From: an uncultured Verrucomicrobiota bacterium
Lineage (GTDB): Bacteria; Verrucomicrobiota; Kiritimatiellia; JAAZAB01
Length of the DNA stretch: 64,000 bases
Direction of reading: 5' to 3'
Assembly (NCBI GenBank): GCA_964650945.1
Contig: CAZYXU010000001.1
Span: 32,474 to 96,473 of the forward strand
The notes beneath the pieces are model-generated. The model was given only the letters and a program-made list of their open reading frames with translations, was not told where the DNA came from and did no database searches. Positions 715-34,577 of this stretch are shown here, piece by piece. Position 1 is the stretch's first letter. The number at the start of each line of letters is the position of its first letter. Position numbers and translations under genes: made by a program.

Positions 715-719
715 GGCTG

Positions 720-4917: not shown

Positions 4918-4977
4918 GGGGAGGTCTCCTAACTACAATTCATTAAGCAAATTACAACGATTGGTGGGCATTGCCTG

Positions 4978-5034
4978 CCACAATATTTGCCACCTTTTTT
5001 AAAAACAAGTCACTTTTAACACTACCTGTAGTGG
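4978..5034. promoter_or_regulatory. Two candidate NrdR-box-like operators upstream of nrdJ (CCACAATATTTGCCACC at 4978-4994; ACACTACCTGTAGTGG at 5019-5034)
   Basis: The second site matches the published 16-nt NrdR consensus acaCwAtATaTwGtgt at about 12/16 positions with palindromic flanks ACACTA...TAGTG. The first contains a CACAATAT half-site. Both lie 60-120 nt upstream of the nrdJ start in an AT-rich intergenic region. Confidence 0.3.
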
Positions 5035-5260
5035 ATGCCAAGAAAAAAATTTTAGCAAAAATATGAATGCCTAATTTTGCTTGGAAAACTGCGTTTTTTT
5101 TATTTTTTTTATTGAAAGAGTTGCTTCCAAAAGTCAAATATTGAAAGCGGTAGTCAGTATCCAGCGGTAAGTAGTCAGGATCGCAAAAGACACAAGACAT
5201 TTATAACAAACATCTTGTATTTATTCTGGATTCTGACTTGAATTCTGAATTCTTTCCATT

Positions 5261-5436: not shown

Positions 5437-5689
5437 CAGTGAAATTGGCTCAAAAAAATATTTTGCCGTGTTCATCGGGCGGATACGCGGCCGGCGTGAT
5501 CACGGCTGCGTCATACTCGGAAAAGACGGCTCGGCAGGGACGCCTCGCCCCACCATTTTGGCCATATCATCCTTGGTGGGGCGAACCGTCCCTGGTGAGC
5601 CGCAAGAATGACGCAGCCGTGCCGGCCTGATGCGGAGCGAAAATACCTGATTGCATTGTCGGGGATGGATTGATAACATCATCCGCATT

Positions 5690-6262
5690 ATGAAAAAACA
5701 TGCTGTAGTTTTTTTCGCGGCGTTTTTTAAACGCTGCTGGCCGCTGGGCCTGGCGGCGTTATGCCTGGTCTCCGCGCCCCGCGCGCAAGCCGAGCATTTG
5801 CTCGACCTGGGCGCGCGCTATCATGCCGCGCATCACCAGTTTGACAAACTGCCGTTCGGCAATGGCGATATCTCTTATCTGCTGGCCTATTCCTACGCCG
5901 AATCGCTGGCGCTCTGGCAATTGGGTGTGGATTTCGCGCCGGATGTTTCCGGTGAAATGGCGCTGGCGGGCGATCGGGTTGTCGGCGATATCGATTATGC
6001 CGTTACGCCGCAATTGAATTTGATCATCAAGGATAATTACTTCCGCGGCGGGGCGGGGGTGCGCACCAGCTATGTGGAAGCCGAAGATGACAGCGAGTGG
6101 CTCGATCCCTATTGGCAGTTTCTGCTGGGCCTGAATTTTCCGCTGATGGGCCGGTTTTCCCTGGATGCGTCCACAAGTTACGTCTTCGAACACCTGGAAA
6201 AACTGGATGGCTTCGATTTCCGCGATCTGGAATACCAACTGACCTTGAATGTGAAATTCTGA
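5690..6262 (+). CDS. Hypothetical secreted protein, probably a small outer-membrane beta-barrel (signal peptide; C-terminal Phe)
   Basis: N-terminus MKKHAVVFFAAFFKRCWPLGLAALCLVSAPRAQA is signal-peptide-like. Alternating hydrophobic residues and the terminal ...LTLNVKF are OMP-like. It is the first gene of the + strand glycosyltransferase cluster. Confidence 0.5.
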   Translation: MKKHAVVFFAAFFKRCWPLGLAALCLVSAPRAQAEHLLDLGARYHAAHHQFDKLPFGNGDISYLLAYSYAESLALWQLGVDFAPDVSGEMALAGDRVVGDIDYAVTPQLNLIIKDNYFRGGAGVRTSYVEAEDDSEWLDPYWQFLLGLNFPLMGRFSLDASTSYVFEHLEKLDGFDFRDLEYQLTLNVKF

Positions 6263-6336
6263 TTTGCCGCGGCGCCGCCGGCGGCAATCCCGGCAGCCGC
6301 TCCTGGCCCCCGCGCCGGTGAACCGGACGGTTTATA

Positions 6337-6873
6337 TTGCTTATGTCCAACGCATCCCCATCCGCAGCGAGCGCGCCGCCGGCCGGCCCGGCGGAGGCCG
6401 GTTTCGAGCTGGACATCGGCGCGGATGGCGTGGATGCGGAGCGGATCATGGCGGAAGTGCGCGCGGCGGTGGCGCGCAAGACGGAGGCCGGGGTTTATCG
6501 CGACTTGCGGATCGCCCAGGCCGAGCGCCATAACCTGCAAAACCTGCGGGATGACGAAAAATTTTTGCAGTTTTACCTGGAATGCCTGCATGAGGCCGCT
6601 TGCGTCGACATCAATGATTTTGAAATCCGCGAACGGCGGCGGCTGGGCGCCGGCCTGCTGGTGGCGTTGAAGCGGGCCGTCTGGCAGTTGTTGAAGTTCT
6701 ACACTTACCGGCTCTGGTCGCAGCAAAACCAGGTCAACGGCCTGCTGGTGACGGCGCTGGAAAGCCTGGATGAAAAATACCGGGTGCGCCTGGCGGCGCT
6801 GGAACAAAAAGTCGCCGCGCGGCCGCAAGCTGCGCAGGAAGGAACGCAGGTATGTCCACCGCCCGGCGCATAG
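6337..6873 (+). CDS. Hypothetical protein (no recognisable family), overlaps the start of the downstream GT4 gene
   Basis: 178-aa ORF, co-directional with the next gene and overlapping it by 22 nt (6852-6873); no motif recognised. Confidence 0.4.
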   Translation: MLMSNASPSAASAPPAGPAEAGFELDIGADGVDAERIMAEVRAAVARKTEAGVYRDLRIAQAERHNLQNLRDDEKFLQFYLECLHEAACVDINDFEIRERRRLGAGLLVALKRAVWQLLKFYTYRLWSQQNQVNGLLVTALESLDEKYRVRLAALEQKVAARPQAAQEGTQVCPPPGA

Positions 6874-8039
6874 CTTTTGTATGCCCGCGTTTTGCGGAAG
6901 GCGGCACGGTGGGCGGCGCCGAGACCTTGTTGAAAAATCTGGCGGAGCGCGCCGCCGCCGCCGGCCGCCAGGTGGCGTTCCTCACCACCTGCGCCGCCGA
7001 TCATTTCACCTGGGCCAACACCCTGCCGCCGGGCGTCCGCCAATTTGCCCCCAACATGACCGTGCAGTTTTTCCCCGTCGCGGAAAAACGCGATCTGGCG
7101 GAGTTCCTGCGGGCGCAGGATTTGATCTGCCGCGGCGCAGCCTATACGCCGGCGGATGAGCAGGCGTGGCTGGCCAACAGCGTCACCAGTCCGGCGCTTT
7201 GCGCGCATCTGGCGGAGGCCGGCGCGGCCTACGACCGGATCGTCATCGGGCCGTATCTGTTCGGGCTGACGTATTTCGCCAGCCAGGTCCGGCCGCGCCA
7301 GACCATCTTGCTGCCTTGCCTGCATGACGAGAGCTTTGCCCGGGTCCGGGCGTTCCGCGCGATGTTTCGGGCGGTGGGCGGGCTGATCTTCAATTCCGTT
7401 CCGGAACGCGAACTGGCGCGCCGGCTTTACGACCTGCCGCCGGACCGCGCCTGGGTGGTGGGGATGGGGTTGGACGCCTTCAGCGCCGATGCCGCGGCTT
7501 TCAGCCGGCGGCACGGACTGGCGGCGCCTTACTTGATCTATTCCGGCCGGCGCGAGGCGGGCAAGGGCGTGCCGCTGCTCCTGGATTATCTGAATCTTTT
7601 CCGGCAGCGCACGGGCATGGATGTCAAGCTGGTGCTGACCGGATCGGGAACGGTGGATCCGCCTCCCGGCCTGGCGCGGCATATTCTGGATGTGGGATTT
7701 GTCAGCGAAGCGGAGAAGCGCGAGGCCATGGCCGGCGCGGCGGTGTTTTGCCAGCCGTCCACCAACGAGAGTTTCAGCATCGTGCTGCTGGAGGCCTGGC
7801 TGGCGGGAACGCCGGCGTTGGTGCATGCGCGGTGCGCGGTCACCACCGATCATTGCCGGCAGAGCGGCGGCGGCCTGTGGTTCATGACTTACGCGGAGTT
7901 TGAAACGGAGTTGCTGCTGCTGCTGCGCCGGCCGGACTTGCGCCGGCGCATGGGGGCGGCGGGACGCGCCTATGTCGCGCGCGAGTATTCCTGGCCGGGC
8001 ATTCTGGCCAGGTTCCTCGCGGCGCTGGACCAGGAGTGA
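6852..8039 (+). CDS. GT4 family glycosyltransferase
   Basis: 395 aa; N-terminal IAFVCPRF...GGAE and a C-terminal E...FSIVLLEAWLAGTPAL block typical of Glycos_transf_1 (GT-B). Confidence 0.85.
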   Translation: MSTARRIAFVCPRFAEGGTVGGAETLLKNLAERAAAAGRQVAFLTTCAADHFTWANTLPPGVRQFAPNMTVQFFPVAEKRDLAEFLRAQDLICRGAAYTPADEQAWLANSVTSPALCAHLAEAGAAYDRIVIGPYLFGLTYFASQVRPRQTILLPCLHDESFARVRAFRAMFRAVGGLIFNSVPERELARRLYDLPPDRAWVVGMGLDAFSADAAAFSRRHGLAAPYLIYSGRREAGKGVPLLLDYLNLFRQRTGMDVKLVLTGSGTVDPPPGLARHILDVGFVSEAEKREAMAGAAVFCQPSTNESFSIVLLEAWLAGTPALVHARCAVTTDHCRQSGGGLWFMTYAEFETELLLLLRRPDLRRRMGAAGRAYVAREYSWPGILARFLAALDQE

Positions 8040-20602: not shown

Positions 20603-21139
20603 TCACGGGTGAGCGGACGGATTGCCCGCCGCGGGTGCGCCGTCCGCTCCGCCCGCTGGCCGGACCTCGTGTGATTCCTTTTTCTTGCTGAGAACGATTT
20701 CGGCGCCGTTGACCGTTCGCTCAAGATGTGCAAGCTCCTGAAGAACTTGCACGGCCTCGAGGACGGACATATCCAGCCCGCCGAAGGTGTAGACGCCCTT
20801 GATGCCGCCACCACCTTCCCATGTATGAAAGGTCATCAGATCCCTGTCGGCGCCGGGGTCTAGCGTAATCCTAATCCGCTTTGATTCTGGGGTCTTGCCG
20901 CGGTCTTGGATTGAGATGTTGAAGAAATAGATTATGTCAGCAATGGCGGCTTGCTTGAAGTCGACCTTCGGCAGTCTGGTTTCGTGCAAGAGCTGCTCGG
21001 TGTCGTTCGTCAACTTTGCGGCGGTGGCATCGTCGATGATCACAACTTTCCTTAATTCACGGGCTTCCGGAGCGGCTGCTGACGGAACAGATGCCCAGAG
21101 GGTCATGCAGGCCAGGATCATCAGTGGCGCTTTCTTCAT
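20603..21139 (-). CDS. Hypothetical secreted protein (signal peptide), lower-GC gene
   Basis: MKKAPLMILACMTLWASVPSAAAP signal peptide. Local GC is about 50-55% versus about 65% for the flanks. Confidence 0.55.
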   Translation of the reverse strand: MKKAPLMILACMTLWASVPSAAAPEARELRKVVIIDDATAAKLTNDTEQLLHETRLPKVDFKQAAIADIIYFFNISIQDRGKTPESKRIRITLDPGADRDLMTFHTWEGGGGIKGVYTFGGLDMSVLEAVQVLQELAHLERTVNGAEIVLSKKKESHEVRPAGGADGAPAAGNPSAHP

Positions 21140-21615
21140 GTCTTCCTTCTATATTGAGCCCTGCTTGCCTGCCACCACTTCTCCAACGTCGTGAAGTCTT
21201 CAGATGAAAGAGCTTTAAGGCTCGGATCGCCGGCCATCTCTTTGAAGACAAGTTTCCACTTGGACTTATCTCGCGCCATGATCTCGTACTGGACACTTCC
21301 GTCGGTCTTCCCGTTGTTGGTGACGCTAATCTTGACGACCAAGAAAGCCCAATCTCCTTGCACCTTGCTGTCGATAACTGTGATCGACAGATCACCCGAA
21401 CGGAGCTTTTCAGAGTTGACGCTGAGTTGGGCTTTCTGTTGCTCCAGGAATTCCTTGTTGTCTATAGGGAAGAGGTAGTCATCCGCTTGTGCCAGCTTCC
21501 CTTCCTTCACAATGGTCCAGAACTGGTCATAGGCGTTTTGGGGAGTCTCCTCCGCCGTAACAGGTGTGGCTGCCATTAGGGTTGAGATGATTATTGTTGT
21601 GATGTATGTCTTCAT
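21136..21615 (-). CDS. Hypothetical secreted protein (signal peptide; possibly NTF2/SnoaL-like fold), lower-GC gene
   Basis: MKTYITTIIISTLMAATPVTA signal peptide. GC is about 50%. It overlaps the downstream gene by 4 nt. The ORF-track start at 21642 is a TTG, so the ATG at 21615 is preferred. Confidence 0.55.
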   Translation of the reverse strand: MKTYITTIIISTLMAATPVTAEETPQNAYDQFWTIVKEGKLAQADDYLFPIDNKEFLEQQKAQLSVNSEKLRSGDLSITVIDSKVQGDWAFLVVKISVTNNGKTDGSVQYEIMARDKSKWKLVFKEMAGDPSLKALSSEDFTTLEKWWQASRAQYRRKT

Positions 21616-21830
21616 ATTCAGATCTGATGTCATTTTGATCAAATGTGCCCATGAGCGGCGCGGCCTGTCCGGGCCCGTTGTATGCGCTTGTTCGTTTGGT
21701 TTTTTCTTACAAAGCCACGAAGGAAGGTCTATAACTCCCCATCAGTCGTTCGGGTTAGTTTTCACCCATCTTGGTGTCTTTGTGGCTTTGTGAGAGAAAA
21801 TATCCATTGTTCGCTCTTCACTTCGCCTCG

Positions 21831-23219
21831 TCATGATTTGGCTGGGATTGCAGCGGCGCAGCAGGATGTCCGGCGGAAAAGGAAGAGCGTGCCGACGCGC
21901 TGGGGTTGGCCGTCCACCTCCAGGTAGGGATAGGCCAGGAAATTGATCGGACCGGCCGCCGGTCCGGGGTCGAGCGCAAGATCGCGGCCGCGCGAGAACT
22001 CGATCCGGTTGGCGGGGTGGTGACCGAAGTAGTACATGCTCAGGGCGCTGAACTTGTCGGCCTCGCTGATGTCCACGGGCCACCACTTGCCGTCCGCGTA
22101 GAACTCGGCCCAGCAGTGATACCCGTCGGTCCCGCCCTCGTCGCGTTCCGAAGGGATGGCCGCGCCGATGGCAAAGCGCGCGGGAATGCCCAGCGCGCGT
22201 GCCAGTCCGATGAAGTAGGCGTGGTAGTCGGTGCAGTTACCCGAAAGCGCATCGCAGGCGCGCATGGCGTCGCCCTGCCCCCAGCCGTCACCGCACTTCT
22301 GGTAGAGCATACTGTCAATCACATGATCGTACAAGGCCCGCGCCCGCATCAAATCGCCTTCCAGCCCCGCGACCGCTTTCTCAGCCGCCGCTCTGACCTT
22401 TTCGTCGGCCGGCACCATTTGTTCGGGCTGCAGGTGTTTGACGGCGTCCTGCGGATCGCCGGCATAGGCGCCCTTCTCGACGCGGAAGACATCGTAGACA
22501 ATCTCGATGGCCTGGCCGGAGTGCTCGGGGCCAAGTTCCAGGAAGAGCGCCTTGTTGCCGTGCGCGCTGTCCGTGAGCGTCTTGGCCGGGACCGGCGTGT
22601 TGACGGACTTCACGGTGATTTTCTGGAAATCGTCCGATTGCGCCAGCGGGATCCAGCAACGGGCCGGTCCGTCAAGCTTCGGCAGCGTGGCCTGGTAGCG
22701 GAATTCGAAAGCGTCGTGCCCCGTCAGGACGCCGAGCAACTCCTTCGACGCGTCTTCCACCGGAGCGCGGACCCAGCGCTTGTCCTCGTTCTGCTTCCAG
22801 ACGTAGTACGGTTGGCCGTTCAGCTTATGGACCGTGGTTTCGGTCACGGTCATCGCGCCCGGATCGCCATGGAGGAAGAAGTCAATGTCGTAGAATTGTC
22901 CGTCAGCGCTGACCATGTCCACGCAGGCGAAATGGCGTTGGGGCGCCAGCGACGCGAGGTATTCGACATGCACGCGCACCAGCTTAAGCTTCAGTTCCTT
23001 GCCCTCGAAAGGCACGGTGAAGTATCCTGCGCCCGCCGCTACCTCTTCGGCAATATGCTTTTCGATGCCGGCCTGGATGTCGGCCGTGACGATGGTAGGA
23101 ACATAGGGCTCGTCTGCGGCGGCGGACGATGGCTTGGCTATGTTCGGCTGTTCCCTGGCGCACCCGAGCAAACAGAGCGAGACGGCCACCATGGTCCAGT
23201 ATCTTTGGAATCCTGCCAT
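21831..23219 (-). CDS. Transglutaminase-like domain lipoprotein
   Basis: MAGFQRYWTMVAVSLCLLGCAR lipoprotein signal; catalytic-triad-like spacing GNCTDYHAYFIGLARALGIPARF (Cys)...YHCWAEFY (His)...WWPVD (Asp) of transglutaminase-like cysteine proteases. The N-terminal 43 codons in the ORF track are rejected as an Arg/Pro-rich artefact. Confidence 0.75.
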   Translation of the reverse strand: MAGFQRYWTMVAVSLCLLGCAREQPNIAKPSSAAADEPYVPTIVTADIQAGIEKHIAEEVAAGAGYFTVPFEGKELKLKLVRVHVEYLASLAPQRHFACVDMVSADGQFYDIDFFLHGDPGAMTVTETTVHKLNGQPYYVWKQNEDKRWVRAPVEDASKELLGVLTGHDAFEFRYQATLPKLDGPARCWIPLAQSDDFQKITVKSVNTPVPAKTLTDSAHGNKALFLELGPEHSGQAIEIVYDVFRVEKGAYAGDPQDAVKHLQPEQMVPADEKVRAAAEKAVAGLEGDLMRARALYDHVIDSMLYQKCGDGWGQGDAMRACDALSGNCTDYHAYFIGLARALGIPARFAIGAAIPSERDEGGTDGYHCWAEFYADGKWWPVDISEADKFSALSMYYFGHHPANRIEFSRGRDLALDPGPAAGPINFLAYPYLEVDGQPQRVGTLFLFRRTSCCAAAIPAKS

Positions 23220-24975: not shown

Positions 24976-25096
24976 GAAGGAATGTACTGCTTCGGTTCTT
25001 CACAACCATGCGACGACGACGGTGACGCCCGCGCCCGCCGCGAGGGCCGCCAGAACAAGCTTCACTGTGCCTGCGTCCATGACGATGCCGCCTTGT

Positions 25097-25759
25097 TTAC
25101 GCCACCAGTCCCGCCTCCTGAAAACTGTAATACCCTTTCCGGGTAACAATGATCTGATCCAGGACGCGGATGCCTAGAATCTTTGCCGCCTGGGTCAGTT
25201 GCTCGTGTATCTTCAGGTCGGCGTCGCTGGGTTTGAGTTCGCCGGATGGGTGGTTGTGGGCGAAGATGACGGCGGCGGCCCGGTCGGCGATTACGTCGGC
25301 AAAGACCTCTCGCGGGTGAACCTGGCTCCGGTCCAGTAGGCCGATGGTGACGGTGCGCTTCTCGATGACTTCGTTTGCGCCGTTCAGGGAAATGCAGAGG
25401 AAGTGCTCCTGTTGCTTCCCGGCAATGTCGGCCAGTAGTGGAAGGGCATCGGCGGACGTCGCAATCTTGACCGTGTCCCTTAACAGGTGCCGCCGGGCGA
25501 GTTCAAAAGCGGCAAGGACTTGGTATGCCTTGGCGGGGCCCATGCCGTGAATGGCGGTCAGGTCCGCCTCGGTAAGCCCCGTTTTCTTCACTTGAATGAT
25601 CTTGGCGATCTCCTTCGACATAGCCCGTACATCGTGGCCCTGAACGCCGCGGCCAAGGATGACCTGAACGAGTTCCTCATCCGTCAAGGCAGACGCGCCC
25701 CTGGCCGCCATCTTTTCACGGGGTCGATCCTGTTCAGGCATGTCCTTGATGGTCTTCAC
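25097..25759 (-). CDS. radC: RadC-family JAB/MPN domain protein (UPF0758)
   Basis: C-terminal HNHPSGELKPSDADLKIHEQL (JAMM motif) and N-terminal HhH region; 4-nt overlap with hsdM upstream. Confidence 0.85.
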   Translation of the reverse strand: MKTIKDMPEQDRPREKMAARGASALTDEELVQVILGRGVQGHDVRAMSKEIAKIIQVKKTGLTEADLTAIHGMGPAKAYQVLAAFELARRHLLRDTVKIATSADALPLLADIAGKQQEHFLCISLNGANEVIEKRTVTIGLLDRSQVHPREVFADVIADRAAAVIFAHNHPSGELKPSDADLKIHEQLTQAAKILGIRVLDQIIVTRKGYYSFQEAGLVA

Positions 25760-27339
25760 GCTTTCAGTTCCTGTAATCCGGCGGCGATCTCGCGTTGCGC
25801 TTCTTCGATGATGGCCGTCAGTTCCGCTGGGGTCCGCTTGTCGGAGAGGTCCGGGGCGTTGTCATTATTGGCTTTGATGTCGAAGTCCCTGGACTTGATG
25901 GTCTCGGCGTCCACGTACCAACTGCGCTCGCTGATGCGGCGTGGGTCGTCGGCCGGCAGGCGGATGCGTTCCAGAAAGTCCCCGAAATTGGCGTAGGTCA
26001 GGGGATTGGATTTGTTCACCTTGCGAGGCGTGAAGTCGTCCTTCAGGGTCATGTCGTAGTACCAGACCCGCTGTGTGGCCCGGCCCTTGGTGAAGAAGAG
26101 AAGGTCGGTCTTCACGCCCGCACCGGCATTCACGAAAACGCCTTGGGGCAGACTGACGATGCACCAGAGGTCGCACTCGTCCATGAGTTTACGCTTCGTC
26201 TGCCGGTAAGCCGCGGTTTTCGTGTGGAAGAGGACGCCCTCGTCAATCACCATACCGCACGTCCCGCCCTCGGCCAGCGCGTCGATGATGTGCTGGAGAA
26301 ATAGAATCTGCGCCTTGCCGCACTTGAAGGCGAACTGCGCCTGGGCGTCCTTGCCTTCCTTGCTGCCGAACGGGGGATTGGTCAGAACGTAGTCGAACTG
26401 GGACGGCGCGCCGGTGAACAGGTCGGCATAGGTGGGTGTCCCGGTCAACGTGTTGCCGTGCCAGATGCGCGGCAGGTCAATCTCGTGCAGAGCCATGTTG
26501 GCCAACGTGATCGGGATCGCTTCCGGCGCGTCCTCCCGGCCCCAGAATGTTTCGGTCTTCAACTCCTTCATCTGCGTCGGCGTCGGGCGCTGTTGCAGCA
26601 GGTGCTTGTACGCCTCGATGAGAAAGCCGCCGGTCCCGCAACAGGGATCGTACACGGTCTTGTCGAGACGGGGATTGACGACGTTGACGATAAGCCGGAT
26701 CACCTCGCGCGGGGTAAAGAATTGTCCGCCGTCGTTCTTCTTCTCGCCGAGGCTGGGGAGCAGCCCCTCGAATGCCTGCGAGATCGGAAACATGTGCTGG
26801 GCGTCAATCGTCCCGGCGGTCAGTGCGTGGACGCGGTCCAGAACGTCGAGAAGATTTGTCTGGCTGGCGACAACCGTTCGCTCCTTGTTGGCGAAAATCT
26901 CCCCGATGATCTTCTGTTTCGCACTGGTGCCCGCCTTCTCCTTCAGGCCGATCAGGAACGGGAACAACTCCCCGTTCACAAAGGACAGAAAACCGTTGAG
27001 TTCGGCCTTCGTCTCGGTTAGCTCGTAGCGCTTCCACCCGGTAAAGGCTTTACCTTTGCCGCCGGCGTGCTTGTCGAATGGGGCGGCCCAGTCACGCCAG
27101 CGGTATGGCGGCGGGATGGATTCATGGTAAGGTTTTTTGACCGCCAGGGCCTTGGCAGCCTCCTTCTCCTCCATCATGTCGAGGAACCGGAGAAAGAACA
27201 TCCATGTCAGTTCCGGCACGTATAGCCGCGCCCCCTTGGCCTTGTCGCGGCGCAGGATGTTGCAGATGCCCTTGACCGCCTTGTCCATGCCGGCCTGGGT
27301 CGAGATGGTTTTACCGTTGTTCTGAAGACGATTTTTCAT
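25756..27339 (-). CDS. hsdM: Type I restriction-modification system, DNA methyltransferase subunit
   Basis: HsdM_N region, DPCCGTGGFL (motif I) and NPPFG (motif IV) of N6-adenine MTases; 527 aa. Confidence 0.9.
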   Translation of the reverse strand: MKNRLQNNGKTISTQAGMDKAVKGICNILRRDKAKGARLYVPELTWMFFLRFLDMMEEKEAAKALAVKKPYHESIPPPYRWRDWAAPFDKHAGGKGKAFTGWKRYELTETKAELNGFLSFVNGELFPFLIGLKEKAGTSAKQKIIGEIFANKERTVVASQTNLLDVLDRVHALTAGTIDAQHMFPISQAFEGLLPSLGEKKNDGGQFFTPREVIRLIVNVVNPRLDKTVYDPCCGTGGFLIEAYKHLLQQRPTPTQMKELKTETFWGREDAPEAIPITLANMALHEIDLPRIWHGNTLTGTPTYADLFTGAPSQFDYVLTNPPFGSKEGKDAQAQFAFKCGKAQILFLQHIIDALAEGGTCGMVIDEGVLFHTKTAAYRQTKRKLMDECDLWCIVSLPQGVFVNAGAGVKTDLLFFTKGRATQRVWYYDMTLKDDFTPRKVNKSNPLTYANFGDFLERIRLPADDPRRISERSWYVDAETIKSRDFDIKANNDNAPDLSDKRTPAELTAIIEEAQREIAAGLQELKA

Positions 27340-27359
27340 TTCAGAGTTTCCGCCAGCAC

Positions 27360-27527
27360 TCAGGCTTCCGTGGCGCCGTATTCCGCCGGTTTCTCAGCCA
27401 CAACCAAACGCTTTCGGCTGGCACAGCGCTTCTCGAACTGCTCGCGCGCCTCCCGCAGTTCCTTCGTCATCAATTCCGGGTGTCCATAGTATCGCTTGGA
27501 CAATTCCGTTCGGATGTCGCGCATCAT
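27360..27527 (-). CDS. Small basic hypothetical protein (55 aa from MMRDIR; the ORF extends to 27584 and overlaps the PIN gene's 3' end)
   Basis: Open frame 27360..27584, placed between the PIN gene and hsdM. No family recognised; start choice uncertain (27527 or 27554). Confidence 0.35.
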   Translation of the reverse strand: MMRDIRTELSKRYYGHPELMTKELREAREQFEKRCASRKRLVVAEKPAEYGATEA

Positions 27528-27537
27528 CCTGACGCAG

Positions 27538-28005
27538 TCAAATGTCTTTTTCATTGAGCACCTCCCTGGGTGTGCGAATATCAATCAAACCGTAACCTTC
27601 CTTCAAGTTTACGGAATTGTATAGTCGGATGCGGTTTAGATTCACGATGTGCTTGAAGTTCCAACTTACCAGAACATCCACTCGTGCCACCGTCGCGGCG
27701 GCGATGTGCAGTCCATCCGCCACGGTTGCCGGCGTCACAATGCCATCGCGGAGATAGGCATCGGCCAAGGCCAGCGATTCATTTGTCTCGGGCAATATCT
27801 CTCGGCGCTCCACGGGCATATCCTCCACAATCTCCCGCACTCGTCCCGGCGCTTGCCGTAGTTCCCGGATCGTCAGTTCCGACAGCACCATCTTCTTGCG
27901 CCCATGCCGAAACTCCCCCATCAGGCGTACCGACCATTCCTTGAACTCATCCTCAAAGCAACCTCCGATCACTGACGTGTCAACGTAGATTCGCATCTTG
28001 TCCAT
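27538..28005 (-). CDS. PIN-domain protein (VapC-like putative toxin/ribonuclease)
   Basis: MDKMRIYVDTSVIGG (first conserved Asp), E at about 40, VADGLHIAAA (third acidic), SWNFKHI and a C-terminal acidic residue: the PIN fold signature. Starts 15 nt after the HTH gene stop. Confidence 0.75.
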   Translation of the reverse strand: MDKMRIYVDTSVIGGCFEDEFKEWSVRLMGEFRHGRKKMVLSELTIRELRQAPGRVREIVEDMPVERREILPETNESLALADAYLRDGIVTPATVADGLHIAAATVARVDVLVSWNFKHIVNLNRIRLYNSVNLKEGYGLIDIRTPREVLNEKDI

Positions 28006-28020
28006 CCATATTGCTGAAGG

Positions 28021-28425
28021 TCACACGGCCAACGCCTTTGCGCGCCGGTCTAGATCGGGCGAGTGGAGTTTCCGCACTTCCTCGATGAATTCGTCCAGTT
28101 CCTTCTCGGTCAATTCCGCGCCGCGGACCGTCCGGAAGAAGACCGGCAGTTTCGCGAGCAACTTCTCGTCGCTCATGATCTCCCGTGGAATCTGGCCTCG
28201 GGCGATATCCGCCTGATCCATGAAGTCCTGCCACTCGGATGACTCCGGCTTCAGGCCGAGCGCCTTGGCCCATTTCGCCAAGGTCTTCGTGTCCTTGGGC
28301 GGCGGATTGACGTTCCGCTCGATCTTGCTCCAGTTGCTCGGATCAACCTCGTTCTCGGCACAGAATTGCCGTAGCGTCCTCCCCTGCGCGATCCGCTTGT
28401 CTTTAACGAGTTCGCCGAATGTCAT
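28021..28425 (-). CDS. XRE-family helix-turn-helix protein (putative antitoxin/regulator), 134 aa
   Basis: AGGAGG RBS 8 nt upstream of the ATG; ELVKDKRIAQGRTLRQFCAENEVDPSNWSKIERN is a classic HTH_3 motif, with a 70-aa C-terminal domain. Confidence 0.75.
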   Translation of the reverse strand: MTFGELVKDKRIAQGRTLRQFCAENEVDPSNWSKIERNVNPPPKDTKTLAKWAKALGLKPESSEWQDFMDQADIARGQIPREIMSDEKLLAKLPVFFRTVRGAELTEKELDEFIEEVRKLHSPDLDRRAKALAV

Positions 28426-28497
28426 GGTAAGGTCCTCCTGTTGCTTCATCCGTGGTGTAGAATAAACCACATGTGGTAGGAATGCAACCACAAAATA

Positions 28498-29718
28498 CTA
28501 CCCGAAATCGAACGCCTCGCGCAGGATCGCTCCGGGCAGGGCGGAAACAGCATCTCGTTCGTTGGCCGAAGCCGCTCTGATCCTGCTTATGGCCTTCCGT
28601 TGCCTTTCGACGTCTTTCACAATGTTTTCCTGGTCGTCAATAGTGGGCGGTATGGGTACCGGGTAGTCACGCATGAAATCCGCAGGCACCCGCTGTTGCC
28701 CCGCGCTGCCATCGAATTTCGCCTCTGCAGCATCGCGGAATTCGCGAGTTCGCACCAGAAACAAGAGCCATTCTCGCCGAATCCCGGGCTTGGCCCTCAA
28801 GACGTGGAATTCGGTTGTGCCAAAACCGAAGCCTTTGGTCAAACCCGTTGCGATCGCCGACTTTCCGTTCTGCATACATGGCGTTATTTTCGCAAACAAC
28901 ACGTCGCCCTCTTCGAAATAGGTGTAGCCCTTCGCGACTGACGAGAGAGGTTTCGTAATTCTCGTTGCGATCTGCCCCAGAGTCTCGTCTATGGCGTCCA
29001 TTGGCACAAAACTGACCATGGCATCTGCCTTTTCTGCGCCAAGCGCCTTGCGACGCGGATTGATGTCGGCCATCTTACCCAATGGTACTCTCATCCATCC
29101 ACTAGGCAAACGATCTCCTCGTCCCGTGTGCAGGGCGTTGCGAAGAAACGCGCATTCGAGCGTTGCCGCTGCGTCTATCTGTCTCTCCGACGCCCGCCGC
29201 ATGGACTCGACCTTGCTTAACTTCCGCTCCAGTTCGGCAGCGAGACTGTCTCTCGCTGCTTCCTCACGTGGGACAGGAACGCAAAGGCGTTTCAGTTTCC
29301 GAATGTCGGCTCTGGGCATCCGGCCGCCCGTTGAATACTTCACCGCGCAGTCTATGACCTGCTTCGACTGGAGAGCGGCTGCAAGAAAGGCGCGGGACAC
29401 CCCGGCGGCTGGTCTCAATGTGAGGATTTCCATACAGCATTTTCCAGGTATATCCGGCAGGAATACCTTGTCGAGATAGGGGCGCAGTTTTCCGTATAGG
29501 ACGTGAGTATGGTCGAAACGGAAGCATGTGCTCTCCGCCTTGGCGGGAGACTCCGAAATGAACCGGCGCGTATGCGATTCGATATTTTCCAGACCTACAA
29601 ACGGCAATCCGGCGAAGTCGGGGTCACCCGCTTGGACTTGGTTTCGCTCTTCCTCGAAGAGATTTCCCAGTTCCATCCATTGCCAGTCTGGGGGTAGTTG
29701 TCTGGCTGTTGAGGTCAT
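28498..29718 (-). CDS. hsdS: Type I restriction-modification system, specificity subunit (two TRDs)
   Basis: 406 aa with two target-recognition domains separated by a conserved central helix (LAAELERKLSKVE...) and C-terminal helix repeats. ATGA overlap with the hsdR stop. Confidence 0.85.
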   Translation of the reverse strand: MTSTARQLPPDWQWMELGNLFEEERNQVQAGDPDFAGLPFVGLENIESHTRRFISESPAKAESTCFRFDHTHVLYGKLRPYLDKVFLPDIPGKCCMEILTLRPAAGVSRAFLAAALQSKQVIDCAVKYSTGGRMPRADIRKLKRLCVPVPREEAARDSLAAELERKLSKVESMRRASERQIDAAATLECAFLRNALHTGRGDRLPSGWMRVPLGKMADINPRRKALGAEKADAMVSFVPMDAIDETLGQIATRITKPLSSVAKGYTYFEEGDVLFAKITPCMQNGKSAIATGLTKGFGFGTTEFHVLRAKPGIRREWLLFLVRTREFRDAAEAKFDGSAGQQRVPADFMRDYPVPIPPTIDDQENIVKDVERQRKAISRIRAASANERDAVSALPGAILREAFDFG

Positions 29719-32111
29719 GCCAGCAGCCTCGCCTTGGTTTCCTGAATCACGGCCTGCGGCGTGAGCGGGAGGCGCAGGAGCGCGTCGAAGCCGCCTTGCT
29801 GAACGACCTCGTCCACGTCGAACAGATGATGGGTTTCCAGTTCCTCAATGCCGCCCTTCTCGAATTGGCGGGCAATCGCCATGACCACGCCGGCGGAGCG
29901 GTCCGGGAATTGCCGCAGCCAGGTCTTGTTCTTATACCCGAAGGCGGCGACGCGCTCCGGGCGCGAGCGGGCGGGTATGCCGTAGCCGAGATTGACCAAC
30001 ACGTCGAAAAGATCGCACTCCTGCTCTTCCTCGATTTCCCGAATGAGCCGGATCGCGCCTTCGCCGCCCGGTAGGGCGGTGATTAACTCCCGGCGGCGGG
30101 CCGGTTGAATCCAGATGGTGCGCAGGGCGTCCGCCGTGGGCGCGGTCTCGGTGAGTTGCGCGGCAAGGCGCTGTTTGTAGGTCTCCAGCGGAACCAGGAC
30201 TTCCTTCCCGTCCTCCTCGCATAGGATGGAATGGCCGGCGCCGTCAATCTGGACCGTGAATTGATCCTGCCCTACGCGAATGATCTTTCGCTTGGGCGTG
30301 TCGGATTTGCCGTAGCCGGGCGTCGGGGATTCGACGCCTTCGGCCGGTTCGTCGGTCGGGGAAGACGGTTTGGCGCGGCTGACGAAGGGTTGCCCGAAAA
30401 GGCGGGCGGCGTTGGTGTAGTCGTAAACGCGGAAGAGCAGTTTCGAGCCGCGCGGTTCGCCGGTGCGCGTGCCGCGGCCCACCATCTGGTAGAACATGAT
30501 CGGCGATTCGATGTATCGGAAGAAGACCACGTTGGCGCAGTTGGGTATATCCACGCCGTAGCCCAGCAGATCGACCGTGGCGGCGATGAAATGGGAGTTC
30601 TTCGATCCCCGGAATTCGGGGATCAGTTTGTCGGCGGATGGCCGCAAGTCCGGGTTGCCCGTGCATTGGAAGGCAAACCACTCCTTCGGCGTGCGCCCGT
30701 TGTCCCGGCACCATTGCTCGTACAGGTTGTTCAACTTGATCATCACGCGGTTGGCGTGGCTGTCGCGGGCGCAGAACAGGATGGTTTTCTGGTGAGGCCC
30801 GCCGGAATCGAGCAGGAGCTTAAACAGGTCTTCGCACATGGCGTTCACACGGTCGTCCAGCATCAGAATGCTGTCGTAGTCCGTAGCGGTATACTTGTCT
30901 TCGATATCGCCGGGATTGACCGGCTTACCGGTGAAGGGGTCCACGGCGGACCGCGTCTCAATGTCTTTTCGCGTGATCTCCTTCTTGTCCAGATCAACGG
31001 TCCGGCGGATGATCTCGCACGCGGCGAGATAGCCGTCATCCTGGCCGGTGGTCATGGCGTACTCGTAGACCGGTTCGCCGAAATAGTTGACGTTGTGTGC
31101 GGTGATGGTCTCGTCCGTCATCCGGGCCGGCTGCCCCTTTTTGCCCCCGACTACCTTCCGGGGCGTGGCGGTCAGGCCGATATGCACGGCATCCGGGTTG
31201 TCCTTCAGAATCACGCTCCACTTGCTCCACGCCGACCGGTGGCACTCGTCAATGACGATGTGACTAAAGAAACCGGGCGGGTAGTTCTGTTTCCAGAATA
31301 AGGGTTCGCTGTCCTCCGCCGTGACATTGAGCGTCTGATAGGTCGCCACGAGCACCTTGGCATTGCGGGCCGGATCCTCGCTGGTGACGATCTTCGCATT
31401 ATCGCCGAAGATCGCGTGCAACTTGCCCATGCCCTGGGTGCGGAGTTCATCGCGGTCGCAGACGAACAACGCGCGTTTCAGCATGCCAGCCTGGGCCAGT
31501 TTCCAGAGCAATTGAGCGGCTAGGACCGTCTTGCCCGTGCCGGTAGCCAGGGACAGAAGCGCCCGATTTCCGCCGCCGGCCAGCTTCTCCAACGTCGCGC
31601 GGATTGCCGCATCCTGGAAGTACCAGCGGGCCGCCTCGCCGCCCTTGTACGGCATGAAAAGCGCCTTGGCCGCGTCGGTATCGAGGGTGATTCCCCGCAA
31701 CGCCTCGTAACGCGCCTTGAGTTGTGCGGGAGTCGGGAACTCAGACAGCGGCCGGTTCTCGATAATCTGACCGGTATCCTCGCCGTATTCGGTGAAAAGG
31801 TGGCCGTTCGTGGCAAACACAAACGGCACATTGTACTTCCGCATGTAGTCCTTCGCTTGTTGGATGCCGAGGGACGGCAGTTTGTCCTCGGCTTTGGCCT
31901 CCATCAGGGCGATTGACAACGGCGACTTGCCGGCATGGATCGGCAGGCACAGAAGGTAATCTGACCGCCCCTTCCGCTTGCGGGGCTTCCCGTCCACGAT
32001 ATCCGCACCGCCTGGAGTCTTCTCTTCCCGGACAAGATCGTCCGTCCATCCGATCCCGTCCAGAACCGGATCGATCAACTCCACCCTGGTCAGATGTTCA
32101 TTCCGTGGCAT
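29715..32111 (-). CDS. hsdR: Type I restriction enzyme, R (endonuclease/helicase) subunit, short EcoEI-like form
   Basis: HSDR_N-type N-terminus (LIDPVLDGIGW...SIALMEAKAED PD-(D/E)xK), Walker A SLATGTGKT, DEAH box VIDECHRS, helicase motifs, and an EcoEI_R_C-like C-terminus; 798 aa. Confidence 0.85.
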   Translation of the reverse strand: MPRNEHLTRVELIDPVLDGIGWTDDLVREEKTPGGADIVDGKPRKRKGRSDYLLCLPIHAGKSPLSIALMEAKAEDKLPSLGIQQAKDYMRKYNVPFVFATNGHLFTEYGEDTGQIIENRPLSEFPTPAQLKARYEALRGITLDTDAAKALFMPYKGGEAARWYFQDAAIRATLEKLAGGGNRALLSLATGTGKTVLAAQLLWKLAQAGMLKRALFVCDRDELRTQGMGKLHAIFGDNAKIVTSEDPARNAKVLVATYQTLNVTAEDSEPLFWKQNYPPGFFSHIVIDECHRSAWSKWSVILKDNPDAVHIGLTATPRKVVGGKKGQPARMTDETITAHNVNYFGEPVYEYAMTTGQDDGYLAACEIIRRTVDLDKKEITRKDIETRSAVDPFTGKPVNPGDIEDKYTATDYDSILMLDDRVNAMCEDLFKLLLDSGGPHQKTILFCARDSHANRVMIKLNNLYEQWCRDNGRTPKEWFAFQCTGNPDLRPSADKLIPEFRGSKNSHFIAATVDLLGYGVDIPNCANVVFFRYIESPIMFYQMVGRGTRTGEPRGSKLLFRVYDYTNAARLFGQPFVSRAKPSSPTDEPAEGVESPTPGYGKSDTPKRKIIRVGQDQFTVQIDGAGHSILCEEDGKEVLVPLETYKQRLAAQLTETAPTADALRTIWIQPARRRELITALPGGEGAIRLIREIEEEQECDLFDVLVNLGYGIPARSRPERVAAFGYKNKTWLRQFPDRSAGVVMAIARQFEKGGIEELETHHLFDVDEVVQQGGFDALLRLPLTPQAVIQETKARLLA

Positions 32112-32255: not shown

Positions 32256-32474
32256 ATGGCAAGTACACTCCAGATTGAGAGCATGTCACGCGCGGAAAAA
32301 CTCCAGGCAATGGAGGCCATTTGGTCCGATTTATCCAAAGATGAAGCCAACGTGGAGTCTCCTCCATGGCACGCTGACGTTCTCAGGGAAACCAATGCCA
32401 GGGTTGCCGCAGGTCAGGAGCGCATAGCAGACTGGGAAACGGCCAAGCTGGAACTCCGGAAACGGTTTGAATGA
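32256..32474 (+). CDS. Addiction-module antitoxin (putative addiction module component family, 72 aa)
   Basis: MSRAEKLQAMEAIWSDLSKDE...PPWHADVL...AAGQERIADWE pattern of the TIGR02574-type antitoxins that partner RelE/ParE toxins. Confidence 0.75.
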   Translation: MASTLQIESMSRAEKLQAMEAIWSDLSKDEANVESPPWHADVLRETNARVAAGQERIADWETAKLELRKRFE

Positions 32475-32611
32475 GGATCAAAATCCTGTCTTCAGCCATG
32501 GAAGACTTACACGCCGGGCGCCTGTTTTACGAGATGCAGGCGGAGGGAGTAGGCGCGTACTTTTTTGATTCCCTGTTTTCCAACATTGACTCCCCCGTTG
32601 ATCCAGAATAG
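32471..32611 (+). pseudogene. Truncated RelE/ParE-family toxin remnant (46 codons; about half length)
   Basis: ATGA overlap with the antitoxin stop. MRIKILSSAMEDLHAGRLFYEMQAEGVGAYFFDSLFSNIDS resembles ParE N-termini, but the frame stops after 46 aa, directly followed by the RBS and start of gap. Confidence 0.45.
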
Positions 32612-33897: not shown

Positions 33898-34329
33898 ATG
33901 TTGATTTATCTGGATACATGCTGTTTTAACCGTCCGTATGATGACCAGATGCAGATAAATGTCAGGCTGGAGACGGAAGCCAAGTTGTCCATTCAGGAAC
34001 ATGTGAAGCGAGGTAACCTGGATTTAGCTTGGTCGTTCATTTTGGATTATGAAATTGCCCAAAATCCCTTTCCGGAACGCCGGCTTGCAATCCATGATTG
34101 GCGTGGTTATGCGTGCAGGGATGTTGCGCAATCGGCCAAAATTGTTCATCAGGCAAAAATACTGTCTGAACAGTTGATTCAAACATTTGATGCGTTGCAT
34201 GTCGCTTGCGCGATGCAAGCTGGTTGTCAATATTTCATAACTGCCGACAAACGCTTGATTCAAAGATTGAAACATAATAAGGTAATCCATGTTGTTAATC
34301 CCGTCAGATTTGTCATGGAGGTGCTATAA
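33898..34329 (+). CDS. PIN-domain protein (VapC-like), AT-rich gene
   Basis: MLIYLDTCCF (N-terminal Asp), E about 26-30, FDALHVACA and ITADKRL segments fit a PIN fold. Gene GC is about 40%. Confidence 0.6.
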   Translation: MLIYLDTCCFNRPYDDQMQINVRLETEAKLSIQEHVKRGNLDLAWSFILDYEIAQNPFPERRLAIHDWRGYACRDVAQSAKIVHQAKILSEQLIQTFDALHVACAMQAGCQYFITADKRLIQRLKHNKVIHVVNPVRFVMEVL

Positions 34330-34577
34330 TGATCAGCGATACGCAAATACGTATTAAGGGCATGCAGGCGCTTACGGGCACTTTGGGTGATATCCAGGCG
34401 GAAAGGTTTATTACGCTTATGATTCGCGAACCATTTGATTACACCGAATGGCGACGTGATTTGTGGCAAGGTAAAAGCGTGGAAGAAATAAGCAATGAAG
34501 CCATGCGATACCGACGCACACACCGTTTGCGTAAAATCGGGTCCGCCAGGAAGACCGCAACTAAACGCAATAAATAA
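34329..34577 (+). CDS. Hypothetical 82-aa protein downstream of and overlapping (ATGA) the PIN gene; possible cognate antitoxin
   Basis: Start codon overlaps the PIN stop; basic C-terminus (RRTHRLRKIGSARKTATKRNK). No family recognised. Confidence 0.4.
   Translation: MISDTQIRIKGMQALTGTLGDIQAERFITLMIREPFDYTEWRRDLWQGKSVEEISNEAMRYRRTHRLRKIGSARKTATKRNK

What the first reader, a model, noticed from the sequence alone, without database searches (positions are those of the whole stretch)
25097..32111. Type I R-M operon split by an embedded XRE-HTH / PIN / small-ORF cassette, with radC as the last gene
Seen in sequence: seven co-directional minus-strand genes are packed with 4-nt overlaps or very short gaps. 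hsdR/hsdS overlap at 29715-29718, hsdM/radC at 25756-25759, and the HTH stop is 15 nt before the PIN start. A 1.1-kb three-gene insert separates hsdS from hsdM, which normally abut. It consists of an XRE HTH protein (AGGAGG RBS), a PIN-domain protein with the acidic-residue signature, and a 55-74 aa basic ORF overlapping the PIN 3' end. Established knowledge: Type I R-M loci are recurrent hot spots for embedded toxin / abortive-infection genes (for example prrC inside the E. coli prr hsd locus). HTH-XRE antitoxin + PIN toxin is a common VapBC-like layout. Inference: this is either an addiction module that stabilises the restriction operon, or an uncharacterised PIN-based abortive-infection/defence module that is co-transcribed with restriction. 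The third ORF has no family I can recognise and could be a new component. radC (JAB/MPN) fused into the operon's 3' end is also atypical.
Basis: partly seen in the sequence, partly recalled or inferred. Interest (0 to 1): 0.7.

Follow-up and report, generated by a model that had tools for sequence, protein, structure and literature searches.

The report
Restriction operon with two stacked inserts
A mobile Type I restriction-modification operon that ends in radC has a cargo slot between two of its genes; here the slot holds a repressor gene that has lost its usual protease partner, followed by a PIN-nuclease and small-protein pair that looks like a toxin-antitoxin module, a new example of a known habit of defence loci.

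Summary
The seven co-directional minus-strand genes exist as described. The 1.1-kb insert between hsdS and hsdM is real and variable. Metagenomic relatives with about 89% nucleotide identity (L104, L106) carry hsdR-hsdS-hsdM-radC with hsdS abutting hsdM.

The insert is two independent modules, not one three-gene cassette.

1. The PIN gene's conserved partner is the small downstream ORF (64 aa). The pair recurs with the same 17-nt overlap in eight contexts without the HTH gene. One of these is the same slot of the same R-M family (L116). Related pairs sit next to rep genes on Leptospira plasmids.

2. The XRE-HTH gene belongs to a family that is normally followed by an M78 (ImmA/IrrE/CapP-like) peptidase: 62 of 80 genome loci, and none with a PIN gene. 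It arrived with its own conserved promoter and two GTGGT-N9-ACCAC operators, but without the peptidase.

The PIN domain has a VapC-like fold. It keeps only three of the four canonical acidic residues; an invariant Asn in SWNFKH replaces the fourth. radC is a conserved last gene of this mobile R-M cassette.

Embedding of toxin or defence genes in Type I R-M loci is already well documented. The PIN/small-protein family and the radC linkage are uncharacterised. All functions here are inferred.

The parts
29715..32111 (-). hsdR, the Type I restriction subunit (798 aa; ResIII, helicase C and EcoEI_R_C domains)
   Evidence: Pfam, PADLOC and NCBIfam hits. The NCBIfam EcoAI/FtnUII model scores 422 bits, below its equivalog cutoff of 550. 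It is 94-95% identical to the HsdR of L106 and L117.
28498..29718 (-). hsdS, the specificity subunit (406 aa). Its second half (28498-29195) belongs to the window-specific segment.
   Evidence: PADLOC Specificity_I 1.5e-77. DNA homology to L104 and L106 stops at 29196. The second half resembles the hsdS of L116 at about 70% nucleotide identity.
28452..28491 (-). Internal promoter-operator of the HTH module. It has two inverted repeats, GTGGT-N9-ACCAC, at 28473-28491 and 28452-28470. These overlap a -35-like TTGCAT (28482-28487) and a -10-like TATTCT (28459-28464) separated by a 17-nt spacer.
   Evidence: The same architecture lies upstream of the HTH gene in 18 of 20 related loci. The motif occurs only twice in the 64 kb, both times here, against 0.02 expected. 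DNA homology to HTH-M78 loci extends to 28492-28496.
28021..28425 (-). XRE-family HTH repressor gene (134 aa). It is of the ImmR/CapH-like type and lacks its usual M78 peptidase partner.
   Evidence: Sub-threshold HTH_19 and HTH_31 hits, and PADLOC capH at 2.6e-4. The family is 60-81% identical along its whole length. The partner is an M78 peptidase in 62 of 80 loci. There is no M78 gene in the window.
27538..27996 (-). PIN-domain protein (152 aa; an alternative ATG lies at 28005). It has a VapC-like fold and an SWNFKH motif.
   Evidence: 6783 homologues. AF2 model pLDDT 94.7. The top Foldseek hits are Salmonella and Shigella VapC. Conserved residues are D9, E20, E48, D97, N116 and H119.
27360..27554 (-). 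Small basic protein (64 aa), the conserved partner of the PIN gene. It has its own GGGAGG and overlaps the PIN 3' end by 17 nt.
   Evidence: Conserved relatives. 188 clusters in an exhaustive profile search, with no Pfam family. It is paired with a PIN gene in all close relatives. The model is a helical hairpin with a disordered tail.
25756..27339 (-). hsdM, the Type I methyltransferase (527 aa)
   Evidence: N6_Mtase 1.6e-59 and PADLOC MTase_I 2.9e-148. It is 91-93% identical to the HsdM of L106 and L116.
25097..25759 (-). radC (220 aa; UPF0758_N HhH domain plus RadC JAB domain). It is the last gene of the mobile cassette.
   Evidence: NCBIfam NF000642 scores 193.6 against a cutoff of 180. The JAMM motif HNHPSGELKPSDAD is intact. 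It is 92% identical in L106 and 85% in L116, in both cases downstream of hsdM.
27321..29195 (.). Window-specific segment relative to the 'empty' cassettes L104 and L106. It holds the second half of hsdS, the HTH module, the PIN/small module and the first six codons of hsdM.
   Evidence: The blastn homology blocks are 32111-29196 and 27320-25107. Junction repeats are described.

Best explanation
**Overview.** The locus is a horizontally mobile Type I R-M cassette, hsdR-hsdS-[slot]-hsdM-radC. The hsdS/hsdM junction is a cargo slot. In this window the slot holds two unrelated modules stacked head to tail.

**Module A: PIN plus small protein.**
- It is a VapC-fold PIN nuclease followed by a translationally coupled 64-aa helical-hairpin protein.
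- I infer that it is a toxin-first type II toxin-antitoxin-like pair. The small protein would bind and silence the PIN RNase.
- When expression stops, through loss of the cassette or phage-induced shut-off, the small protein would decay and the nuclease would arrest growth.
- This would stabilise the R-M cassette and could act as a back-up abortive-infection layer.

**Module B: orphan XRE repressor.**
- It is an ImmR/DdrO/CapH-type XRE repressor that arrived with its own sigma-70-like promoter. Two GTGGT-N9-ACCAC operators overlap that promoter.
- Its usual M78 peptidase partner is absent.
- I infer that it autorepresses an internal promoter reading into PIN, the small ORF, hsdM and radC.
- This would give the downstream half of the operon transcription independent of hsdR. 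Without a cognate peptidase in cis, induction would need a peptidase encoded elsewhere.

**How the slot is filled.** Cargo is exchanged by recombination between the conserved middle of hsdS and the 5' end of hsdM. Each insertion regenerates the hsdS-tail/start-codon junction.

**Shown versus inferred.**
- Shown: gene content, module boundaries, variability of the slot, partner statistics, operator conservation and the PIN fold.
- Inferred: toxicity, neutralisation, repression and any defence phenotype.
For: **Empty and alternative slots.**
- L104 and L106 have hsdS abutting hsdM.
- L116 has PIN plus small ORF and no HTH gene.
- L117 has a different, unidentified gene after hsdS.
- Homology to L104 and L106 starts at the hsdR ATG and ends at the radC 3' end, and the flanks are unrelated.

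**PIN/small pairing.**
- The pair occurs with a 17-nt overlap in L001-L013, L023 and L116. It also occurs on viral contigs L107 and L108, and on Leptospira plasmids directly after rep.
- The identities of the two proteins fall together across loci: 84/75, 78/71, 70/60, 62/48 and 61/48 %.

**HTH family.**
- 62 of 80 loci have an M78 gene downstream, and none has a PIN gene.
- The closest relative, at 81% identity, is followed by an HELGH peptidase, and homology ends at that gene's start codon.
- The operators are conserved.
- The M78 partners score as capP at 1e-11 to 1e-14.

**Other.**
- The PIN model is confident and VapC-like.
- The junction repeats are shown.
- No terminator signal above chance lies inside the operon.
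Against: - No experiment supports toxicity, neutralisation, DNA binding or defence.
- The PIN lacks the acidic residue after strand 4. [quoted passage not shown] It could be inactive or use different chemistry.
- The small protein has no recognisable DNA-binding or antitoxin fold, and Foldseek found nothing.
- Neither the PIN nor the small protein hits any PADLOC model.
- Two orphan HTH loci (L040, L043) lie about 300 nt upstream of a HepT-like RNase. This HTH family may therefore sometimes partner RNase toxins directly.
- The junction repeats are short and not statistically testable.
- Only 64 kb of the genome was seen, so an M78 partner acting in trans cannot be excluded.
Confidence: 0.6

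Rival explanations
1. The XRE-HTH protein is the antitoxin of the PIN toxin, as in a VapBC-like pair, and the small ORF is an additional third component.
For: - The HTH and PIN genes are adjacent and co-directional, with a spacer of only 24 nt.
- Xre-PIN pairs and Xre/COG2856/PIN three-component systems are described (PMC2701414; PMC5499597).
- Two orphan members of this HTH family precede a HepT RNase.
- L106 carries an HTH-M78 fusion followed by a DUF4411 PIN-like gene next to the same R-M cassette.
Against: - None of the 80 loci of this HTH family has a PIN or small-ORF homologue.
- The PIN/small pair occurs without the HTH gene in eight contexts, including the same R-M slot.
- DNA homology shows two separate modules with a breakpoint at about 28049-27999.
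Confidence: 0.12
2. The PIN/small module is a dedicated guard of the restriction enzyme, in the manner of PrrC. The VapC-like RNase would be held inactive until a phage anti-restriction factor disables the Type I complex. It would then cleave tRNA and abort the infection.
For: - The module is embedded in the same hsdS/hsdM slot in two diverged versions (61% PIN identity) and beside an hsdS-tail remnant in L023.
- Genes embedded in Type I R-M loci are often defence genes: PrrC, DarTG2 and TgvAB.
- The closest structures are tRNA-cleaving VapCs.
Against: - The module also stands alone next to ordinary metabolic genes and beside plasmid rep genes. It therefore does not need an R-M partner.
- It has no similarity to PrrC and no PADLOC hit.
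- Its active site is atypical.
Confidence: 0.18
3. The insert is inert debris. The HTH gene is a decaying remnant of an HTH-M78 pair, and the PIN is a catalytically dead pseudo-nuclease carried along by recombination in hsdS.
For: - The M78 partner is missing.
- The acidic residue after strand 4 is missing from the PIN.
- The last 9 codons of the HTH gene are not homologous to the family.
Against: - All three ORFs are intact and have good ribosome-binding sites.
- Both operators are perfect.
- Near-identical copies of all three proteins occur in several independent samples.
- The Asn and His of the SWNFKH motif are invariant in an alignment of 38 representative relatives, out of 6783 homologues found. 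This indicates selection on a defined site rather than decay.
Confidence: 0.1

Closest known systems
Toxin or defence modules embedded in Type I R-M operons: PrrC in E. coli prr, DarTG2 with the RptR repressor in EPEC, TgvAB in V. cholerae VPI-2, and the 'guilt-by-embedding' candidates of Payne et al. 2024
   Same: A small accessory module sits between hsd genes and is co-directional with them. The site behaves as a recombination hotspot whose content varies between relatives. In the DarTG2 case a small repressor gene also accompanies the island.
   Different: The slot here is between hsdS and hsdM, not between hsdS and hsdR. The cargo is a PIN/small-protein pair unrelated to PrrC, DarTG or GmrSD. 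The repressor is internal to the operon and is an XRE of the peptidase-partnered type, not RptR. No phenotype is known.
VapBC type II toxin-antitoxin systems
   Same: The PIN domain has a VapC-like fold, with Foldseek probability 1.0 and TM 0.56-0.65 to Shigella and Salmonella VapC. It forms a two-gene operon with a small partner and occurs on plasmids next to rep. NCBI annotates some family members as 'VapC family toxin'.
   Different: The gene order is reversed, with the toxin first. The partner has no AbrB, RHH, PhD or HTH domain and no Pfam family. The acidic residue after strand 4 is replaced by an invariant Asn. The Pfam PIN score is below threshold.
XRE repressor plus M78/COG2856 metallopeptidase pairs: ImmR/ImmA, DdrO/IrrE and CapH/CapP
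   Same: Relatives of the HTH protein are followed by an overlapping M78 peptidase that scores best as capP. Palindromic operators overlap the promoter. Several pairs lie beside R-M or other defence genes.
   Different: The peptidase is absent from this window. Sequence similarity to CapH itself is marginal, at 2.6e-4. The HTH gene sits inside an operon rather than upstream of, or divergent from, its target.
Three-component Xre / COG2856 / PIN-like systems (Makarova 2009; Matelska 2017)
   Same: An XRE HTH of the peptidase-associated kind lies next to a PIN-fold gene. A textbook example, an HTH-M78 fusion plus DUF4411, lies next to the sister cassette in L106.
   Different: There is no peptidase here. 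The PIN is not DUF4411, COG2405 or one of the listed PIN families by Pfam. The PIN also has its own separate small partner.

Membership tests
Type I restriction-modification system | HsdR with an SF2 helicase/ResIII core, HsdM with an N6-adenine methyltransferase domain, and HsdS with two target-recognition domains, all in one locus | tested here: met
   Pfam ResIII 1e-30, Helicase_C and EcoEI_R_C; N6_Mtase 1.6e-59; PADLOC Specificity_I hits with two stretches.
EcoAI/FtnUII (type IB) HsdR equivalog | Score above the NCBIfam NF046051 equivalog cutoff of 550 bits | tested here: not met
   The score is 422.5 bits, full length but below the cutoff. It is a related subfamily, not an equivalog.
VapBC type II TA | Toxin with a PIN fold | tested here: met
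   AF2 pLDDT 94.7. The best Foldseek PDB hits are VapC proteins, at E 1.8e-5 and TM 0.56-0.65. Sequence-only searches fail: Pfam gives 17.3 bits against a cutoff of 23.6, and the PDB sequence search gives no hit.
VapBC type II TA | Four conserved acidic active-site residues: after S1, after S2, at the start of H4 and after S4 | tested here: not met
   D9, E48 and D97 are conserved. The position after S4 is an invariant N116 in SWNFKH. Assignment to structural positions was made from the model's secondary structure, not from coordinates.
VapBC type II TA | An upstream antitoxin with a DNA-binding domain (AbrB, RHH, PhD or HTH) that neutralises the toxin | tested here: not met
   The conserved partner is downstream and is a helical hairpin with no known domain. 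The upstream HTH gene is not a conserved partner. Neutralisation itself cannot be tested here.
ImmR/ImmA - DdrO/IrrE - CapH/CapP regulator pair | An adjacent M78 (COG2856) metallopeptidase gene | tested here: not met
   None is present in the 64-kb window. One is present downstream of the HTH gene in 62 of 80 family loci.
ImmR/ImmA - DdrO/IrrE - CapH/CapP regulator pair | An XRE HTH repressor with a C-terminal oligomerisation and cleavage domain | tested here: inconclusive
   The N-terminal HTH hits are sub-threshold, and PADLOC capH scores 2.6e-4 over nearly the full length. A conserved C-terminal LPVFFRTVRGAEL motif exists. There is no PDB sequence match beyond a generic HTH.
ImmR/ImmA - DdrO/IrrE - CapH/CapP regulator pair | Operators overlapping the promoter of the regulated operon | tested here: met
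   Two GTGGT-N9-ACCAC repeats overlap the -35-like and -10-like hexamers, and are conserved in 18 of 20 loci. Binding was not tested.
PrrC-type R-M-embedded anticodon nuclease | An ABC-ATPase-like N-domain plus an anticodon-nuclease C-domain, embedded in a Type I R-M locus | tested here: not met
   The module is embedded, but the protein is a 152-aa PIN with no PrrC or other PADLOC hit.
RadC/YicR family | An N-terminal UPF0758 HhH domain, a RadC JAB domain with a JAMM motif, and a score above the NCBIfam cutoff | tested here: met
   PF20582 8.1e-19, PF04002 7.8e-39, and NF000642 at 193.6 against 180. The motif HNHPSGELKPSDAD is present.

The most novel reading that the evidence does not exclude
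The hsdR-hsdS-[slot]-hsdM-[slot]-radC cassette is a modular defence platform. In this reading RadC, a JAB-domain protein of unsettled function, is a working accessory of Type I restriction. It might process DNA ends or control HsdR. The SWNFKH-type PIN plus its small partner would be a new R-M-guarding abortive-infection module with a non-canonical PIN active site, placed under a repressor that senses DNA damage or infection.
Probability: 0.15. Interest if true: 0.7.

Novelty: new variant of a known kind. Interest (0 to 1): 0.45.

Why it matters
**Why it matters.**

- It adds a clean, comparatively resolved example of the rule that Type I R-M operons carry exchangeable cargo slots. Empty, single-filled and double-filled states are all seen, together with the recombination boundaries.
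- It identifies a widespread but uncharacterised pair. The PIN family has more than 6700 homologues, and the partner family has 188 clusters and no Pfam entry. The gene order is toxin-first and the catalytic motif is atypical.
- It shows how a peptidase-controlled repressor can be captured without its peptidase, bringing a ready-made promoter-operator into the middle of a restriction operon.
- It gives RadC, whose biochemical role is disputed, a reproducible genomic partner (hsdM) in which to test its function.

None of this overturns current ideas. It supplies testable candidates.

Tried and rejected
**Tried and led nowhere.**

1. Profile searches for the small ORF against Pfam, NCBIfam and PADLOC gave nothing. 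A Foldseek search with its model returned no match. I had guessed it might be a ribbon-helix-helix antitoxin; the model shows only two helices and no strand, so this is unsupported.
2. A sequence search of the PIN profile against the PDB found no VapC. An hhalign against a Shigella VapC sequence quoted from memory aligned only 24 columns at 1.7% probability. Catalytic residues therefore could not be mapped residue by residue.
3. A sequence search of the HTH profile against the PDB gave only a generic HTH match.
4. I guessed that the gene after hsdS in L117 is a NYN nuclease. Neither Pfam nor PADLOC supports this.
5. The metagenome scan with HsdM returned only two loci. The useful relatives came from exact-cluster look-ups instead.
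6. Literature and plasmid searches for a RadC/Type I R-M link found nothing specific.
7. The consensus promoter/terminator scan, Rfam and tRNA scans added nothing inside the operon.

**Considered and rejected.** I considered radC as merely a neighbouring housekeeping gene. I rejected this because homology to L104, L106 and L116 ends at or just past radC while the flanks differ.


Full report
**1. What is in the sequence**

Seven minus-strand ORFs fill 25097-32111.

- Profile searches identify hsdR (29715-32111), hsdS (28498-29718), hsdM (25756-27339) and a canonical two-domain radC (25097-25759) with high confidence.
- hsdR/hsdS and hsdM/radC overlap by 4 nt.
- Three ORFs lie between hsdS and hsdM:
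  - An XRE-type HTH gene at 28021-28425 (134 aa). An AGGAGG lies 8 nt upstream, and the gap after hsdS is 72 nt.
  - A PIN gene at 27538-27996 (152 aa).
  - A 64-aa ORF at 27360-27554, with a GGGAGG 6 nt upstream. It overlaps the PIN gene by 17 nt and has a pI of 9.5.
- The HTH and PIN Pfam hits are both below threshold, and the small ORF hits nothing.
- No Rfam family, tRNA, or above-chance terminator lies inside the operon.

**2. The insert is variable, and the R-M plus radC unit is mobile**

The window's HsdM and HsdR belong to clusters of relatives that are at least 90% identical. The contigs carrying them show four states of the slot after hsdS.

| Locus | Arrangement |
|---|---|
| L104, L106 | hsdR-hsdS-hsdM-radC, with hsdS and hsdM 1 nt apart |
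| L116 | hsdR-hsdS-PIN-small-hsdM-[deaminase/HATPase_c_4]-radC, no HTH gene |
| window | hsdR-hsdS-HTH-PIN-small-hsdM-radC |
| L117 | hsdR-hsdS followed by an unrelated, unidentified gene |

- DNA homology to L104 and L106 (about 89%) begins exactly at the hsdR ATG (32111) and runs to 29196 inside hsdS. It resumes at hsdM codon 7 (27320) and ends at the radC 3' end (25107).
- The flanks are unrelated. hsdR-hsdS-hsdM-radC is therefore a transferable cassette.
- The window-specific segment is 27321-29195.
- In L116 the PIN is 61% identical to the window's, the small protein 48%, HsdM 91% and RadC 85%.
The split arrangement is not fixed in relatives.

**3. Two modules, not one cassette**

*PIN plus small ORF.*
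- The PIN family is large, with 6783 hits.
- Every close relative examined has the small ORF downstream with the same 17-nt overlap. In most of these contexts there is no R-M system and no HTH gene. The loci are L001-L008, L009, L010-L013, L023 and L116.
- Two viral-contig relatives at about 42% identity also have a matching small ORF.
- On Leptospira plasmids a SWNFKH-type PIN (46-49% identical) sits directly after the replication initiator. It is followed by an overlapping small ORF with a related N-terminus.
- Identity of the two proteins falls in parallel across loci.
- An exhaustive profile search finds 188 clusters of the small protein, nearly all 40-80 aa, sharing K-x-F-D-x-V-K-M-M-R-x-I-R. 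No Pfam family covers them.

*HTH gene.*
- The family is 60-81% identical over its full length.
- In 80 genome loci, mostly PVC-superphylum bacteria, 62 have an M78 peptidase immediately downstream and none has a PIN or small-ORF homologue.
- The closest relative (81%, L022) is followed by an HELGH peptidase. DNA homology to the window ends at that gene's start codon.
- The peptidases score best as PADLOC capP, at 1e-11 to 1e-14.
- The window has no M78 gene.
- Homology to HTH-M78 loci extends upstream through the 72-nt gap to 28492-28496.
- That gap holds two GTGGT-N9-ACCAC inverted repeats overlapping TTGCAT-17 nt-TATTCT.
- The same layout precedes the HTH gene in 18 of 20 loci.
- The motif occurs nowhere else in the 64 kb, against 0.02 expected.
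- The HTH gene therefore came with its own promoter-operator and without its peptidase.

**4. How the slot is filled**

- The empty-site junction in L106, 'cggagaacTGAcGTG' (hsdS tail, stop, then the hsdM start), recurs after the small ORF in L116 as 'gagaacTGAcATG'. It recurs in degenerate form in the window as 'cggaaactcTGAaATG'.
- In L116 and L023 the PIN ATG directly follows an hsdS-type tail.
- The last codons of the window's HTH gene, 'aag gcg ttg gcc gtg tga', look like an in-frame degenerate copy of the hsdS tail 'gag gcg ttc gat ttt ... tga'.
- Taken with the homology break inside hsdS, this suggests that the second recognition domain and its cargo are exchanged together. The exchange would occur by recombination between the conserved middle of hsdS and the 5' end of hsdM, with the HTH module as the latest addition.
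- The repeats are short, so this step is suggestive only.

**5. The proteins**

*PIN.*
- The model is confident (pLDDT 94.7), and its best structural matches are VapC toxins.
- The family conserves D9 after strand 1, E48 on the helix after strand 2, and D97 at the start of the crossover helix. It also has invariant E20, R144 and E148 (numbering from the 155-aa form).
- After strand 4 it has an invariant SWNFKH motif, with Asn116 where an acidic residue is almost always found.
- The nuclease may be active with altered chemistry, or it may not be a nuclease. This cannot be settled here.

*Small protein.* It models as two helices (residues 7-22 and 26-46) with a disordered tail, and it has no structural match.

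*RadC.* It has an intact JAMM motif.

**6. Most likely mechanism (inferred)**

- The PIN/small pair behaves genomically like a toxin-first type II TA module. It is an autonomous, mobile, translationally coupled pair that also occurs next to plasmid rep genes.
- Inside the cassette it would stabilise the R-M genes and might add an abortive-infection layer.
- The HTH protein probably autorepresses the internal promoter, which reads into PIN, the small ORF, hsdM and radC.
- Relief of repression would need an M78 peptidase in trans. Otherwise the promoter gives a low constitutive output.
- I put the composite-architecture part at about 0.85 and the functional part at about 0.6.

**7. Comparison with what is known**

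- Embedding of toxin or defence genes in Type I R-M operons is established. Examples are PrrC, DarTG2 with the RptR repressor (PMC12255303), TgvAB (PMC11411939), and thousands of embedded genes catalogued by Payne et al. (10.1101/2024.01.29.577857).
- XRE/M78 pairs and their links to PIN toxins and defence operons are also described (PMC2701414; 10.1101/2022.04.27.489752; PMC5499597).
- Four things appear to be new here:
  - this particular PIN/small-protein family;
  - the hsdS/hsdM slot, seen in its several states;
  - the capture of an orphan repressor together with its operators;
  - radC as a conserved terminal gene of a mobile Type I cassette. I found no literature on this last point.
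- RadC also follows a different R-M system, 26-28% identical, plus an HTH-M78 pair in L020.

**8. Verdict**

It is a mobile addiction- or defence-type hitch-hiker, and an internal promoter is likely. The pairing was assigned to the wrong partners, and the acidic quartet is incomplete. This is a new variant of a known kind and is of moderate interest.

Noticed in passing
window 33898-34577 (+): A second toxin-first-looking pair lies 2 kb upstream of hsdR. It is a 143-aa PIN protein (Pfam PIN 24.5 bits) followed by an 82-aa ORF that starts at the PIN stop (ATGA overlap). It sits in a lower-GC stretch (0.52).
   Followed up: partly
window 32256-32611 (+): An 'Unstab_antitox' addiction-module component (72 aa, 5.4e-11) is followed by an overlapping 46-aa ORF. 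That ORF looks like the truncated N-terminus of its toxin.
   Followed up: partly
window 25000-25080 (-); L116 6993-7157: A 26-aa hydrophobic ORF lies just after radC (MDAGTVKLVLAALAAGAGVTVVVAWL). It matches the N-terminus of a 54-aa gene that in L116 precedes ABC-3C system genes (CTD9, MC5). The window may therefore keep a truncated edge of that neighbouring island.
   Followed up: partly
L116 4669-6177: A 502-aa dCMP-deaminase plus HATPase_c_4 protein is inserted between hsdM and radC. Its first ~15 residues (MKTVKGIPEKDRPRK) copy the RadC N-terminus. The hsdM/radC junction may therefore be a second cargo slot.
   Followed up: partly
L106 9300-10930: Directly after radC in the 'empty' cassette lies an HTH-M78 fusion (380 aa) plus a DUF4411 PIN-like gene. 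This is the described three-component Xre/COG2856/PIN arrangement.
   Followed up: partly
L040 77-1097; L043 6941-7958: Two members of the HTH family lack the M78 gene. They lie about 300 nt upstream of a HepT-like (HEPN) RNase, with no obvious MntA partner.
   Followed up: partly
L023 567-1348: A PIN/small pair (84% and 75% identical to the window's) lies immediately after a 42-aa ORF ending in an HsdS-type tail (GAILREAFDLAEK). No hsdM follows. The pair may have outlived a decayed R-M locus.
   Followed up: partly
L020/L025 (uncultured Victivallales) 150-7661: A different Type I system, 26-28% identical and with a GIY-YIG domain fused to HsdS, is followed by HTH, M78 and RadC (49% identical to the window's RadC).
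   Followed up: partly
window 5001-6000 and 21001-22000: These are low-GC stretches (0.49 and 0.53) against a background of about 0.63. They could be other acquired segments.
   Followed up: no
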